Shown here: one piece after another, positions 547-2,554 of the stretch | How the letters are laid out: each line of letters starts with the position of its first letter | How positions within the stretch are numbered: the first letter of the stretch is position 1 | Origin: a virus | Direction: 5' to 3' (one strand) | Length of the DNA: 64,000 bases | IMG/VR virus record: IMGVR_UViG_3300030333_006551 | Location: 65,907-129,906 of that record | The notes under the pieces: model-generated | Told to the model about the DNA's origin: nothing | Databases searched by the model: none | Seen by the model: the letters and a program-made list of their open reading frames with translations, nothing else | Made by a program: the position numbers and the translations under genes

Positions 547-1503
547 ATGGCTGATTACCGTCCTCTGGTTGTGTCGGGGACTGCATCTAATAGCGTAATA
601 ACGGAGCTTCCTACAAGCTCTATTTTAATAGCTGACGGTGTTCGTTTAGGTGCTTCCGCTCTTTCTATTAGCGGTCATTTAGAGCTAATAGGTGGTCTCT
701 CAGGTACGCCTTCAGTATCATCTACTGCTATAAATTCACCTGCATTCACTGGTGGAACTTTTACAGGAACAAGTGTTTCCGCTACTGATATTTCCTCAGT
801 AGGGGTTTCCTGTGTTGGAGGTGGAGGAGCCCACCTATTCATTAGACGGGATGATGGGGCTACATACCCAAATCTTATTAGAGCGACTGATGGGACAATA
901 ACTCTTCAAACTGAAGATGACATCCATTTTAAATCTAATAATGGCGAAGATTTTGCTAGATTTAATGAAAATGCGGCTGTTTGGTTATATCACAATGATT
1001 CTAAAAAAATAGAAACACATGCAGGTGGTGCTGTAGTAAACGGAACTTTAAGCGCAACAACGGGTATGGAGTCTAGCGGTTGTCCTGTCCCTCAGCCTTT
1101 TGGTTATATGCAACTCGACAGTGACGGTACAGATAGTGTAGATGAAACTAACTTAGGGGCAGGAGCGACTGTCACTAATATTGTATCCAACACCGACCAT
1201 ATTAGCTGGAACGATACTGCTAAATACTTTAATGTTAGTGCTGCTGGCGTTTATGAAGTATTGGGAGTTGTTATTCTTGAGGGGGGATCAACCCTGGTCG
1301 ATCTCTCTATTCAAAAAAACGGATCGGATGTCTTGGTGGGGCAGCCAAGAGTGCATTCAACGGTTGATCCATTGGAACACACTATTCGAGCAGTATTTAC
1401 ATGTGCCGCATCGGATTATGTTAGCATCACTTATGATGCGACTGCTTCAAACTCAGTAAAAGCCATTACGGGCTCTACCATGTCCGTTAAGAGATTAAAA
1501 TAA
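547..1503 (+). CDS. fibre/decoration protein with C-terminal C1q/BclA-C-like domain
   Basis: Ser/Gly/Thr-rich shaft, phage fibre repeat ARFNENAAVWLYHNDSKKIET, and C-terminal pattern AAGVYEV...LSIQKNG...CAASDYVSI typical of C1q/TNF-like jelly rolls. Confidence 0.6.
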   Translation: MADYRPLVVSGTASNSVITELPTSSILIADGVRLGASALSISGHLELIGGLSGTPSVSSTAINSPAFTGGTFTGTSVSATDISSVGVSCVGGGGAHLFIRRDDGATYPNLIRATDGTITLQTEDDIHFKSNNGEDFARFNENAAVWLYHNDSKKIETHAGGAVVNGTLSATTGMESSGCPVPQPFGYMQLDSDGTDSVDETNLGAGATVTNIVSNTDHISWNDTAKYFNVSAAGVYEVLGVVILEGGSTLVDLSIQKNGSDVLVGQPRVHSTVDPLEHTIRAVFTCAASDYVSITYDATASNSVKAITGSTMSVKRLK

Positions 1504-1736
1504 TGATTACACAAGATAAAAAAAATATACTCTCTAAAGAGACTTTAATGCCGATGGGCATGGTGCTAGTTCTTTGTGGAGGTGTAGTTTGGATTAGTAA
1601 TCAACTAAGTTTAATTCATAATAAGTTAGAGTTATTAGAAGCAAGTTTAGAAGATCAATGGACTAGACGAGATATGGAAAACTGGGCATTAAAATTAAAA
1701 CTAGAAAACCCTGACATTACACTTCCACTTGACTAG
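1503..1736 (+). CDS. small single-pass membrane protein with coiled coil
   Basis: Hydrophobic LMPMGMVLVLCGGVVWI followed by heptad-like LIHNKLELLEASLED. TAATG overlap with the upstream gene. Confidence 0.65.
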   Translation: MITQDKKNILSKETLMPMGMVLVLCGGVVWISNQLSLIHNKLELLEASLEDQWTRRDMENWALKLKLENPDITLPLD

Positions 1737-1756
1737 ATATTTAGGAGGGATTACTT

Positions 1757-2323
1757 ATGAGTAAACTTATTTTAGTATTATTTTGTTTGGTTACTTTTAG
1801 TTCTACAGCTTTATCCCAAGATAGAGGTCGCATGGATTTAGATGCGATAAAGACCCGTGTAGAGGGTGCAGTAGAATCAGGTAGAATGACTCAAAAACAG
1901 GCAGATGCCTTATATAAGGAGTTAAAAGGGCGTAAGGCTCTTGAAAAAAAAGACGATGGCGTACAGCGAAAAGGTTTTAGATCATTACCACAATCCAAGG
2001 AATGTGGGAAGTTTCAAAAAGGGCGAAAAGGATGTAGGAACGGGAGTAGTCGGGGCTCCAGAATGCGGAGATGTAATGAAGCTGCAAATAAAGGTAGAAG
2101 GGGATCTCATCGTGGATGCCAAGTTCAAGACTTTCGGATGTGGCAGCGCAATCGCTTCTTCCAGTCTCGCCACGCAATGGATCAAAGGCAAGCGGCTGGA
2201 CGAGGCAAACGCGATCACAAACTCCCAAATAGTGAACGAGTTAAGCCTTCCTCCCGTAAAGATTCATTGCAGCGTTCTGGCAGAGGACGCGATAAAAGCC
2301 GCAATAAAAGACTACAAAAATAA
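1757..2323 (+). CDS. putative secreted protein (signal peptide) with Arg/Gly/Lys-rich tail overprinted on iscU
   Basis: Strong RBS AGGAGG upstream. MSKLILVLFCLVTFSSTALS-Q resembles a Sec signal peptide. The frame stays open across nearly all of iscU. Confidence 0.7.
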   Translation: MSKLILVLFCLVTFSSTALSQDRGRMDLDAIKTRVEGAVESGRMTQKQADALYKELKGRKALEKKDDGVQRKGFRSLPQSKECGKFQKGRKGCRNGSSRGSRMRRCNEAANKGRRGSHRGCQVQDFRMWQRNRFFQSRHAMDQRQAAGRGKRDHKLPNSERVKPSSRKDSLQRSGRGRDKSRNKRLQK

Positions 2324-2330
2324 TAACTAA
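1956..2330 (+). CDS. iscU: Fe-S cluster assembly scaffold IscU
   Basis: MAYSEKVLDHYHNPRNVG N-terminus, APECGDVM, FKTFGCGSAIASSS and LPPVKIHCS (three Cys, Asp, His and the HscA-binding LPPVK motif). ATG at 1956. Confidence 0.95.
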   Translation: MAYSEKVLDHYHNPRNVGSFKKGEKDVGTGVVGAPECGDVMKLQIKVEGDLIVDAKFKTFGCGSAIASSSLATQWIKGKRLDEANAITNSQIVNELSLPPVKIHCSVLAEDAIKAAIKDYKNNN

Positions 2331-2554
2331 TCAATCATATGATTTTGTTTTAGCAGTCTAATTAGTCTCCAGGTGTAATTATTTCTAAAAATTTCTAACT
2401 CTGATAGACAGTTTTCTAACACCCTAAGCCCATCCTCAGAAACGGTGGGCTTTTTTTGTATGTTAGTTAAATTATTTTGTATAGCTTTTAATGTAGTAAT
2501 TTCAGTTTCAGATAATTTTGCTACATGTTTTTTTATATCTTTTATATCTTTCAT
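2327..2554 (-). CDS. hypothetical helical protein
   Basis: 75-aa ORF coupled (ATGA overlap) to the helicase gene and convergent with iscU. Confidence 0.6.
   Translation of the reverse strand: MKDIKDIKKHVAKLSETEITTLKAIQNNLTNIQKKPTVSEDGLRVLENCLSELEIFRNNYTWRLIRLLKQNHMID

What the first reader, a model, noticed from the sequence alone, without database searches (positions are those of the whole stretch)
1757..2330. Complete iscU overprinted by a signal-peptide protein, with codon-level evidence that both frames are maintained
Seen: ORF 1757..2323 has a strong RBS and a signal-peptide-like N-terminus, then runs through almost all of iscU (1956..2330) in the -1 frame, stopping only in iscU's last three codons. 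A stop in that frame needs an iscU codon ending in T followed by one starting AA/AG/GA. By manual count there are about 34 junctions where a T-ending synonym was available, and none uses T (TAC AGC, AGC GAA, CAC AAT, TTC AAA, TTC AAG, GAC GAG, AAC GAG, TGC AGC, TAC AAA...). About 21 T-ending codons occur elsewhere in the same gene, and the genome generally favours T-ending codons. iscU has no obvious Shine-Dalgarno. Established: phage iscU genes are known auxiliary genes and IscU is highly constrained. Inference: a true dual-coding locus in which an exported Arg/Gly-rich protein and an Fe-S scaffold share about 370 nt. I do not know of a described example.
Basis: partly seen in the sequence, partly recalled or inferred. 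Interest (0 to 1): 0.9.

Follow-up and report, generated by a model that had tools for sequence, protein, structure and literature searches.

The report
Exported-protein gene overprinted on phage iscU
In a group of uncultured marine phages, the DNA of a captured iron-sulfur scaffold gene (iscU) also appears to encode, in a second reading frame, the long and strongly positively charged tail of a separate exported protein, and selection keeps both readings intact.

Summary
ORF 1757-2323 has an AGGAGG ribosome-binding site and a signal-peptide-like start. It crosses 121 of the 124 codons of an intact iscU (1956-2330) in the -1 frame.

The open frame is not a codon-bias effect:
- Synonymous permutation within the gene gives P = 3e-4.
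- T at the wobble position is 0 of 31 at stop-risk junctions and 21 of 60 elsewhere.
- The phage's other genes use T at 57% of such junctions, and none has an open -1 run longer than 54 codons.

Three relatives with DNA keep the frame open although iscU synonymous divergence reaches 0.8-0.9. In protein databases, 39 of 40 distinct relatives, in at least five clusters below 50% identity, have the same layout. All about 190 other iscU loci examined have stops, unless GC3 is at least 0.88.

Selection goes beyond avoiding stops. The second frame has no Tyr, little Cys or Trp, and 20% Arg, unlike the same frame of sister iscU genes. The tail is predicted to be disordered, with pI near 11.5.

Expression and function are untested. 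Earlier notes of this scan describe similar overprinted exported-protein genes on cyclase genes of other marine phages, but not this iscU case.

The parts
1743..1748 (+). Shine-Dalgarno AGGAGG of the overprinting gene, 8 nt before ATG 1757
   Evidence: Read. Relatives have AGGAGG (L083), AGGAG (L084) or GGGGA (L166) at the same place.
1757..2323 (+). Overprinting gene, 188 codons plus stop: signal peptide, helical linker and polycationic tail
   Evidence: ORF. 13 homologues and five 50%-identity clusters. No Pfam, PHROG or NCBIfam family.
1757..1816 (+). Signal-peptide-like N-terminus, residues 1-20: short n-region, hydrophobic core, small-x-small site (A-L-S) followed by Gln
   Evidence: Alignment and cleavage-motif scan. 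In all 14 aligned sequences position -1 is A or S, position -3 is A, V or T, and Q follows. The 11-residue hydropathy maximum is 3.2. AF2 predicts a helix at residues 3-14. SignalP was not available.
1817..1954 (+). Non-overlapping linker, residues 21-66, predicted helical hairpin. Absent from the 146-aa forms and replaced by unrelated linkers in other lineages.
   Evidence: AF2 helices at 28-40 and 46-64 with pLDDT 70-77. dN/dS is 0.147 for codons 1-66 (signal peptide plus this linker) against L083. Linker variation is seen.
1944..1951 (+). A8 run just before the iscU ATG. It probably gives an unstructured, A-rich initiation region for iscU and is not a conserved slippage site.
   Evidence: L083 has A7. 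The short-form relatives L084 and L166 have only AAA and carry an AGGAG instead.
1955..2320 (+). Dual-coded stretch: residues 67-188 of the overprinting gene, read in the -1 frame of iscU. The tail is disordered and rich in Arg, Lys, Gly, Ser and Gln.
   Evidence: Stop depletion. Frame-specific composition. About 25 Arg and 13 Lys in 121 aa. The mature protein (residues 21-188) has pI 11.5. pLDDT is below 50.
1956..2330 (+). iscU, 124 codons plus stop: intact Fe-S scaffold gene under strong purifying selection
   Evidence: NifU_N E = 7e-52 over profile positions 1-123 of 127. dN/dS is 0.06-0.08 against three relatives. The three Cys, the Asp, the His and LPPVK are visible in the translation. 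The motif list itself is recalled from E. coli IscU.
2426..2457 (+). Terminator-like hairpin (9-bp stem) followed by a T run, about 100 nt after both stops and between convergent genes
   Evidence: Fold of -14.4 kcal/mol, z = -2.6. The simple terminator scan did not list it.

Best explanation
This is a true same-strand overlapping gene pair made by overprinting.

One + strand transcript ends at the hairpin and T run at 2426-2457, and it is read in two ways.
- Ribosomes starting at ATG 1757 (AGGAGG upstream) make a 188-aa preprotein. It has a Sec-type signal peptide cut after residue 20, a small helical linker, and a 121-residue tail encoded by the -1 frame of iscU. The tail is disordered and polycationic.
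- Ribosomes starting at the internal ATG 1956 make a normal IscU scaffold.

IscU is the older gene, and the tail is a new coding sequence laid over it. Selection on the tail acts through iscU's wobble bases. T is excluded before codons starting with A (no stops, no Tyr). T is reduced and C enriched before codons starting with G (little Cys or Trp, much Arg). The tail's exact sequence is otherwise free to drift.

The most likely role is inferred, not shown. I think it is an exported, unfolded polycation that binds anionic envelope components of the host. It could weaken the outer membrane at lysis or shield the infected cell surface.

My confidence by step:
- Both frames are maintained as coding: about 0.88.
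- The product is exported rather than anchored: about 0.6.
- Any specific envelope role: at most 0.2.
For: Shown by computation:

(a) Stop depletion.
- There are 0 stops in 121 codons, against a mean of 6.9 in synonymous permutations (P = 3e-4).
- The same test on three relatives gives P = 5e-5 to 1.8e-3.
- Wobble T is 0/31 at risk junctions and 21/60 elsewhere (p = 4e-5).
- The phage's other ORFs use T at 57% of risk junctions. They carry 8.6-22.8 stops per 125 codons in that frame, and their longest open run is 54 codons.

(b) An iscU-based sample that is not biased towards open frames.
- Of 83 loci from IMG/VR and GenBank phage records, only L083 is open; the other 82 have 5-24 stops.
- Of 80 metagenome loci, only L084 is open at moderate GC. 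Five more are open but have GC3 of at least 0.88, and 74 have stops.
- L166 is open, and L167-L171 have 5-15 stops.
- 24 bacterial genome loci have 1-17 stops and no signal peptide.

(c) Persistence through divergence.
- iscU dS is 0.37 against L083 and 0.82-0.94 against the short-form loci.
- 20 of 46 risk columns vary in the wobble base, yet none shows T where it would make a stop.
- At codon 19, TTT appears only in the one sequence whose next codon is not risky.
- Wobble substitutions between long and short forms split as follows. Before purine-start codons, 23 lack T and 5 involve T. Before pyrimidine-start codons, the counts are 3 and 7 (p = 0.005).

(d) Frame-specific composition.
- T before AC/AT codons is 0/54, against 0.37 in seven sister iscU genes.
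- Before GC/GT/GG codons, T is 0.14 against 0.46, and C is 0.40 against 0.06.
- Before C- or T-start codons there is no change.
- TpA is common in the other two phases, so this is not general TpA avoidance.

(e) A conserved start, ribosome-binding site and signal-peptide-like N-terminus across lineages with different linkers. These are the 146, 151, 160, 181 and 188-198 aa forms. 39 of 40 distinct sequences carry 108-126 overlapped codons.

(f) The non-overlapping N-terminal part has dN/dS of 0.147.

(g) iscU has dN/dS of 0.06-0.08.

(h) The four overprinted iscU genes group together (SH-aLRT 90, quick tree). They sit next to low-GC3 phage iscU genes that have stops.

A weak hint for export: where the tail directly follows the signal peptide, its first 30 residues carry a lower net charge. 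The mean is +3.2 (27 sequences), against +5.6 where a linker of 40 residues or more lies between (13 sequences). The sequences are not independent.
Against: There is no evidence of expression. No RNA run was listed as holding the locus, and no proteomics was available.

In the overlapped frame apparent dN/dS is above 1 (1.4-3.5). Only openness and composition are visibly selected, not the residue sequence.

The protein-database relatives are biased towards intact ORFs. Truncated forms above 90% identity can also hide inside clusters. One cluster member, P0055, has only 84 aa and ends seven codons into the overlap. I could not tell whether that is a stop or a contig end.

DNA is in hand for only four clade members, forming two sub-lineages, so the per-sequence tests are not independent.

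A tail with about 30% Arg plus Lys is an unusual Sec substrate.

The signal peptide was not scored with a dedicated predictor.

No known family, fold or lysis-gene neighbour supports any particular function.
Confidence: 0.65

Rival explanations
1. The locus is dual-coding, but the N-terminal hydrophobic segment is an uncleaved membrane anchor. The polycationic tail then stays in the cytoplasm, following the positive-inside rule. There it could bind nucleic acid or acidic lipids at the membrane.
For: The tail carries net +18 to +31 over 108-126 residues, which disfavours translocation. The hydrophobic core is followed by a region with net positive charge in the long forms. No predictor or experiment settles the topology.
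Against: The hydrophobic core is only about 12-15 residues long. It is followed by a conserved small-x-small site and Gln in all 14 aligned sequences. That pattern is typical of cleaved signal peptides and short for a membrane span. The N-terminus itself is positive (KK). Net charge is lowest just after the hydrophobic segment in the forms without a linker. Cys and Trp are depleted, which would suit an unfolded periplasmic chain.
Confidence: 0.2
2. The frame is kept open for a reason other than its protein product. For example, ribosomes from ATG 1757 may need to translate through iscU to tune iscU initiation or mRNA stability, with the tail as a by-product.
For: Apparent dN/dS is above 1 in the overlapped frame. 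iscU in the window lacks its own Shine-Dalgarno sequence.
Against: A regulatory read-through would not need 121 open codons. It also would not need exclusion of Tyr codons, reduction of Cys and Trp, or enrichment of Arg. The short forms give iscU its own AGGAG. The conserved signal-peptide-like N-terminus would be left unexplained.
Confidence: 0.06
3. The point of the arrangement is a slippage or frameshift at the A8 run (1944-1951). It would fuse the signal peptide and linker to IscU, giving an exported or membrane-tethered IscU. The long open -1 frame would be incidental.
For: An A8 run lies directly before the iscU ATG in the window, and an A7 run in L083. The iscU frame is open from TTG 1941.
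Against: The A run is absent from the short-form loci L084 and L166, which have only AAA. The junction residues of P0014-P0016 do not suggest one either. A fusion would not require the -1 frame to stay open to the end of iscU. Fe-S assembly is cytoplasmic (established knowledge).
Confidence: 0.05
4. The open frame is chance or a composition effect. It would follow from iscU's amino-acid sequence and a GC-richer codon usage inherited from a donor, and the upstream ORF simply runs on.
For: iscU has about 50% GC, against 30-38% in its flanks. Very GC-rich bacterial iscU genes (GC3 of at least 0.88) are also open in this frame. The scan covers very many windows, so rare events will turn up.
Against: Permutation that keeps iscU's own codon usage gives P = 3e-4. 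iscU loci with similar GC3 (0.44-0.62) have 4-16 stops. T avoidance is confined to positions before purine-start codons. The arrangement persists at dS of 0.8-0.9 and across five clusters below 50% identity.
Confidence: 0.03

Closest known systems
Lambda Rz/Rz1 and other embedded or overlapped two-component spanin genes.
   Same: Both are same-strand overlaps in a tailed phage. In both, a gene for a protein with an N-terminal export signal shares DNA with another gene in a different frame. The newer product is small and of low complexity.
   Different: Rz1 lies in the +1 frame, starts inside Rz and is an outer-membrane lipoprotein that partners Rz. Here the second gene starts upstream and runs through the whole partner gene in the -1 frame. 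It has no lipobox: the residue before the conserved Cys is F, V or I. It is Arg-rich, not Pro-rich (2.8% Pro). Its partner is a metabolic gene of unrelated function.
PhiX174 lysis gene E inside gene D (recalled knowledge)
   Same: An overprinted gene gives a protein with an N-terminal hydrophobic segment and a basic, loosely constrained C-terminal part. The older gene stays under strong constraint.
   Different: E is a 91-aa membrane protein of a 5-kb ssDNA phage, where coding space is scarce. Here the genome is about 130 kb, the overlap is 366 nt, and the N-terminus looks like a cleaved signal peptide. No lysis role is shown.
Phage-borne iscU auxiliary metabolic genes of marine T4-like viruses (Nishimura et al. 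2017, PMC5332604; passages containing 'iscU' read)
   Same: The setting matches: iscU carried by uncultured marine T4-like phage genomes, close to gammaproteobacterial IscU. The IscU here is intact.
   Different: The passages I read do not mention a second reading frame. In the loci examined here, most phage iscU genes have many stops in that frame.
Disruptin gp28 of phage phiKT, a cationic peptide that breaks the outer membrane at lysis (bioRxiv 10.1101/515445; search listing and start of abstract seen)
   Same: It is a strongly cationic phage product that acts on the Gram-negative envelope. This is a possible functional analogue for the polycationic tail.
   Different: From recall, gp28 is small, has no signal peptide and is not an overlapping gene. 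There is no sequence similarity, and no lysis-gene neighbourhood was found here.
This scan's earlier notes on exported-protein genes overprinted on adenylate cyclase genes of marine T4-like phages (e1-5358539, e1-5850972, e1-5878383; AI notes, not checked here)
   Same: The phenomenon and habitat match: a gene with a signal peptide sharing about 300 nt with an enzyme gene, conserved in many relatives.
   Different: In those cases the signal peptide itself is encoded inside the enzyme gene, in the +1 frame, and the overlap is partial. Here the signal peptide lies upstream, and the whole enzyme gene is overprinted by the tail.

Membership tests
IscU / NifU_N Fe-S scaffold (PF01592) | Full-length match to the family profile above the curated cut-off | tested here: met
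   175.3 bits against a cut-off of 22, over profile positions 1-123 of 127. Same result on the genome record.
IscU / NifU_N Fe-S scaffold (PF01592) | Cluster ligands (three Cys, Asp, His) and the LPPVK chaperone-binding motif. The list is recalled from E. coli IscU. | tested here: met
   All are visible in the translation and unchanged in L083 and L166. dN/dS is 0.06-0.08.
Same-strand overlapping gene pair made by overprinting | Two long ORFs share DNA in different frames, each with its own start | tested here: met
   ORFs 1757-2323 and 1956-2330 share 366 nt. Their start contexts are shown.
Same-strand overlapping gene pair made by overprinting | The second frame is open more often than the first gene's codon usage allows | tested here: met
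   P = 3e-4 in the window and 5e-5 to 1.8e-3 in three relatives. Genome baseline.
Same-strand overlapping gene pair made by overprinting | Both frames are conserved in diverged relatives | tested here: met
   Three DNA relatives at iscU dS of 0.37-0.94. 39 of 40 distinct protein relatives in five or more clusters below 50% identity. One short member is unresolved.
Same-strand overlapping gene pair made by overprinting | Both products are made | not testable with these tools
   No RNA run was listed as holding the locus. No ribosome profiling or proteomics was available.
Sec (SPase I) signal peptide | Positive n-region, hydrophobic core of 7-15 residues, small residues at -3 and -1 | tested here: met
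   Judged by inspection of 14 aligned sequences. The further lineages P0014-P0016 and P0041/P0053 have different but equally hydrophobic N-termini. No dedicated predictor was run.
o-spanin (Rz1-like outer-membrane lipoprotein) | Lipobox with G, A or S directly before the lipidated Cys (recalled rule) | tested here: not met
   The invariant Cys10 is preceded by F, V or I in all 14 sequences.
o-spanin (Rz1-like outer-membrane lipoprotein) | Short, Pro-rich mature part, and a gene embedded in or next to an i-spanin gene | tested here: inconclusive
   The tail has 2.8% Pro and 20% Arg. The upstream 77-aa protein with one membrane span and a helical part (1503-1736) could be i-spanin-like or holin-like, but it matches no family.
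Programmed slippage or frameshift fusion | A slippery run conserved at the frame junction | tested here: not met
   A8 in the window and A7 in L083, but only AAA in L084 and L166.

The most novel reading that the evidence does not exclude
A phage captured a host Fe-S scaffold gene. A new, functional, exported polycationic protein then arose from that gene's -1 frame by stepwise 3' extension of an upstream signal-peptide ORF. iscU's synonymous sites were re-tuned in the process: GC3 rose from about 0.3 to 0.5, Tyr, Cys and Trp were purged, and Arg was enriched. On this reading the tail is a new class of phage envelope effector, for example a signal-peptide-delivered relative in function of cationic outer-membrane disruptors. 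The short, long and variable-linker forms would record successive stages of de novo gene birth.
Probability: 0.3. Interest if true: 0.8.

Novelty: new variant of a known kind. Interest (0 to 1): 0.68.

Why it matters
Overlapping genes are well known in small viruses and in phage spanins. Here an entire, highly conserved, host-derived metabolic gene in a 130-kb phage is overprinted end to end.

The case comes with natural controls. Sister iscU genes lack the second frame. They show what iscU's silent sites look like when unconstrained, so the cost and the signature of dual coding can be read directly.

It is a clean, testable model for how a new protein is born from an alternative frame, and for how compositional rather than sequence selection shapes such proteins.

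It also matters for annotation. Database proteins show that gene callers have called the long ORF at these loci. Whether iscU is then dropped was not checked here, but calling only one of the two genes could distort counts of auxiliary metabolic genes in marine viromes.

If the tail acts on the cell envelope, it would add a new kind of phage effector.

Tried and rejected
Steps that led nowhere:
- Read laying on four metagenome runs at 80% likeness gave only short patches of unrelated cellular iscU genes. It gave no usable variant table for the clade.
- The look-up of sequencing runs listed no RNA holder. This says nothing about expression.
- The 'shorter' homologue search found no 30-102 aa relatives. 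It searches cluster representatives only, so truncated members inside 90% clusters are hidden, as P0055 shows.
- Viral-contig scans with P0014, P0015 and P0016 found no clade DNA. L172 is an ordinary iscU with 7 stops.
- Pfam, PHROGs and NCBIfam gave no family for the ORF or for its two small neighbours.
- The ESM Atlas gave top scores of 0.78, which is within noise.
- The AF2 model gave no fold for the tail, with mean pLDDT of 49.6. No fold search was run because the model is too poor.
- Searches of the phage record for four common endolysin families (PF00959, PF01510, PF13539, PF01464) found nothing. No lysis cassette could be defined, and the lysis idea stays speculative.
- The nearest isolates by the UvsW-like helicase are below 32% identity. 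The phage is therefore uncultured, and its host is not established.

Literature searches:
- None turned up a paper describing an overlapping frame on a phage iscU.
- The terms were: iscU + phage + overlapping gene (2 irrelevant papers); overprinting + bacteriophage + auxiliary metabolic gene; iscU + auxiliary metabolic + marine + viral; overlapping genes + bacteriophage + signal peptide + alternative reading frame + de novo; iscU + overprint (0 papers).

Considered and rejected:
- General TpA avoidance. TpA is frequent in the other two phases.
- A genome-wide codon-pair bias. The other genes prefer T at these junctions.
- iscU as a decaying pseudogene. Its dN/dS is 0.07.

Rows dropped:
- Of the 26 hits, I kept P0007, P0001 and P0014-P0016.
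- I inspected six of the other 21 (P0017, P0018, P0019, P0021, P0022, P0024). They are spurious or frameshifted calls on mostly GC-rich iscU genes, with no signal peptide.
- I did not inspect the remaining 15.
- In one search, identical protein rows, L164 and L165 were removed before the tree was built. The careful tree search did not finish, so the quick tree is reported.
Full report
WHAT IS THERE

The window is the second half of a 129,906-bp virus record from a marine metagenome, rated complete. At 1956-2330 lies an intact iscU (Pfam NifU_N, E = 7e-52, full length). A 188-codon ORF starts at ATG 1757, eight bases after an AGGAGG at 1743-1748. It runs to TAA 2321-2323, with its codons one base ahead of iscU's. 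It therefore reads 121 iscU codons in the -1 frame.

iscU has about 50% GC, against 30-38% around it. A 9-bp hairpin followed by a T run lies at 2426-2457, before the convergent minus-strand genes.

IS THE OPEN FRAME MORE THAN CHANCE?

A stop in this frame needs an iscU codon ending in T followed by a codon starting AA, AG or GA.

- There are 44 such junctions. 36 have a T-ending synonym, and 34 of those lie before the ORF's own stop. None of the 34 uses T.
- Permuting synonymous codons within iscU, which keeps both its protein and its own codon usage, gives an equally open frame in 61 of 200,000 trials (P = 3e-4). The mean is 6.9 stops.
- Counting only codons that could take T within the same codon box, T is used at 0 of 31 risk junctions and 21 of 60 others (Fisher p = 4e-5). 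For two-fold C/T codons the counts are 9 C and 0 T at risk junctions, against 10 C and 12 T elsewhere (p = 0.005).
- The phage shows no such habit in general. Over 41 long ORFs (19,135 codons), T is used at 57% of risk junctions and 52% of others. Those genes carry 8.6-22.8 stops per 125 codons in this frame, and their longest open run is 54 codons.

RELATIVES FOUND THROUGH IscU, A SAMPLE NOT BIASED TOWARDS OPEN FRAMES

- Of 83 loci from IMG/VR and GenBank phage records, 82 have 5-24 stops in this frame. Only L083, a syntenic 130.6-kb contig with 93.5% IscU identity, is open.
- Of 80 metagenome loci, L084 (91% identity, GC3 0.55) is open. Five others are open but have GC3 of 0.88-0.97. The other 74 have stops.
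- A scan with short peptides of the second frame added L166, a syntenic 34.6-kb contig, which is open. It also added five ordinary iscU loci with 5-15 stops.
- A scan of one genome for each of 185,579 prokaryote species returned the L083 contig again. There it is filed under a single-cell assembly titled Prochlorococcus. It also returned 24 bacterial iscU loci, all with 1-17 stops and no signal peptide.
- In a quick IscU tree the four overprinted genes form one group (SH-aLRT 90). Their neighbours are phage iscU genes with GC3 of 0.28-0.33 and 20-21 stops. In other low-GC3 iscU loci (L005, L086, L095, L118, L051), a ferredoxin gene ends a few codons into iscU.

RELATIVES FOUND THROUGH THE SECOND PROTEIN

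- A word-indexed search returned 13 proteins of 146-198 aa at 44-98% identity.
- A profile search of 1.84 billion cluster representatives returned five true clusters. Three were new: P0014 (160 aa), P0015 (151 aa) and P0016 (181 aa).
- Listing seven 90%-identity clusters gave 34 members.
- Altogether there are 40 distinct sequences. 39 have a hydrophobic N-terminus, a linker of variable length or none, and 108-126 residues of the iscU -1 frame.
- The exception is P0055 (84 aa), which ends seven residues into the overlap.
- No relative of 30-102 aa was found among cluster representatives.
- These protein hits are biased towards intact ORFs, so I rest the case mainly on the IscU-based sample and on the tests below.

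PERSISTENCE THROUGH DIVERGENCE

- iscU dN/dS is 0.06-0.08. Its dS is 0.37 against L083 and 0.82-0.94 against the short-form loci, so the wobble positions have turned over heavily.
- Of 46 columns that are risky in any of the four sequences, 20 vary in the wobble base among A, C and G. None has T where it would make a stop.
- Of 75 non-risk columns, 31 vary and 15 of these involve T.
- At codon 19, TTT occurs only in L084, the one sequence whose next codon is not risky.
- Wobble differences between long and short forms split as follows. Before purine-start codons, 23 lack T and 5 involve T. Before pyrimidine-start codons, the counts are 3 and 7 (p = 0.005).

SELECTION BEYOND STOPS

In the four overprinted genes, pooled:

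- Wobble T is 0/172 before AA, AG or GA.
- It is also 0/54 before AC or AT, where T would give Tyr and not a stop.
- Before GC, GT or GG, T is 0.14 and C is 0.40. Here T would give Cys or Trp, and C gives Arg.
- Before C- or T-start codons, T is 0.49 and 0.43.

Seven sister iscU genes show T at 0.37-0.46 in every class and C at 0.05-0.06 before purines. In the window's iscU, TpA occurs 4, 11 and 2 times with the T at codon position 1, 2 and 3. The avoidance is therefore specific to the phase that starts a -1 codon.

The resulting tail has 20% Arg, 10% Lys, no Tyr and 2% Cys. The same frame of sister genes would give 11% Arg, 3% Lys, 5% Tyr, 8.5% Cys and 16% stops.

The exact residue sequence, by contrast, drifts freely. 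Apparent dN/dS in this frame is 1.4-3.5 for the deeper pairs. iscU's synonymous divergence equals that of its neighbours at the shallow split (0.37 against 0.36). It is about half theirs at the deep split (0.82 against 1.6-1.8). The non-overlapping first 66 codons have dN/dS of 0.147.

THE PRODUCT

The first 20 residues have a short positive n-region and a hydrophobic core of about 12-15 residues. A small-x-small site follows, and then Gln, in all 14 aligned sequences. More distant lineages have different but equally hydrophobic N-termini.

AF2 with the 14-sequence alignment gives a mean pLDDT of 49.6. It predicts a helix in the signal peptide and a helical hairpin at residues 28-64 (pLDDT 70-77). 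Everything encoded by the overlap scores below 50.

The mature proteins have pI of 11.1-11.9 and net charge of +20 to +33. The linker is absent from the 146-aa forms and unrelated in P0014 and P0016. The shared elements are therefore the export signal and the polycationic tail.

Where the tail follows the signal peptide directly, its first 30 residues carry less net positive charge. The mean is +3.2, against +5.6 for forms with a linker of 40 residues or more. Residues 31-60 show no such difference. This fits a Sec substrate, but the lineages are few and not independent.

No family, fold or look-alike was found.

HOW IT MOST LIKELY WORKS

Inference: one mRNA is read from two starts. The upstream start has a strong Shine-Dalgarno sequence in all four loci. 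iscU has an A-rich leader in the long forms and its own AGGAG in the short forms.

The A8 run is not conserved. A slippage fusion of the signal peptide to IscU is therefore unlikely to be the point of the arrangement.

The tail probably arose by extension of an upstream ORF into iscU. Its end point varies (108-126 codons), which fits stepwise 3' extension.

For the role, I commit to an exported, unfolded polycation acting on anionic envelope components. My confidence in this is low. The main rival is a membrane anchor with a cytoplasmic tail. The conserved upstream 77-aa membrane protein is suggestive, but it matches no family. No endolysin of four common families is present in the record.

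COMPARISON WITH WHAT IS KNOWN

Phage iscU genes are known auxiliary genes of marine T4-like viruses (PMC5332604; iscU passages read). Overprinted genes are classic in phiX174 and in spanin pairs (recalled knowledge).

The differences here are these. The overprinted gene is a complete, host-derived, highly conserved metabolic gene. The new gene enters from upstream in the -1 frame. There is no lipobox. The constraint is compositional.

Five literature searches found no description of this case. Earlier notes of this scan report exported-protein genes overprinted on cyclase genes in other marine T4-like phages. The phenomenon may therefore be common in this virus group.

VERDICT

- Observation: confirmed.
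- Dual coding: supported at about 0.88.
- Export: plausible, about 0.6.
- Function: unknown.
- Novelty: a new variant of a known kind.
- Interest: 0.68.

Noticed in passing
window 1503-1736 (+); L083 2753-2980; L166 2320-2544: A 74-77 aa protein with one membrane span and a helical, charged C-terminal part lies directly upstream of the overprinting gene in all three syntenic loci. It could be holin-like or i-spanin-like, but it matches no Pfam, PHROG or NCBIfam family. Its dN/dS is about 0.1.
   Followed up: partly
L005 2709-3011, L086 1227-1511, L095 1197-1511, L118 1239-1511, L051 2721-3011: In several low-GC3 phage iscU loci without the overprint, a ferredoxin-like gene with two CxxCxxC...CP motifs sits upstream in the same -1 frame. 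It stops at a TAG formed by iscU codons 3-4. This ferredoxin-iscU module is a possible picture of the state before overprinting.
   Followed up: partly
L083 / L165 / L173 (one 130,604-bp contig): The closest relative's contig is filed both as an IMG/VR virus record and inside a single-cell assembly titled Prochlorococcus sp.. This is a lead to the host, nothing more. The UvsW-like helicase is below 32% identical to any isolated phage, cyanophages included.
   Followed up: no
window 1985-2218 (-) and 1977-2228 (-); L166 2668-2901 (-); L083 3256-3456 (-): Antisense ORFs of 66-83 codons also cross iscU, in the window and in relatives. The frame directly opposite iscU has only 2 stops. That depends only on how rare the TTA, CTA and TCA codons are. 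I took these ORFs as a by-product and did not test them.
   Followed up: no
window 1920-1955 versus L083 3180-3226: A 27-nt in-frame length difference (9 codons) lies in the linker just before the overlap, between the window and L083. It keeps the frame relation to iscU.
   Followed up: partly
proteins P0021 and P0024 (database, not the window): Some database 'proteins' from GC-rich bacteria begin in the IscU frame and continue in its -1 frame. They look like frameshifted gene calls or assembly errors. They are unrelated to the phage clade and have no signal peptide.
   Followed up: no
whole virus record G000: No match to four common endolysin families (Phage_lysozyme, Amidase_2, Peptidase_M15_4, SLT) was found in a record rated complete. 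The lysis genes of this phage group are unidentified.
   Followed up: partly
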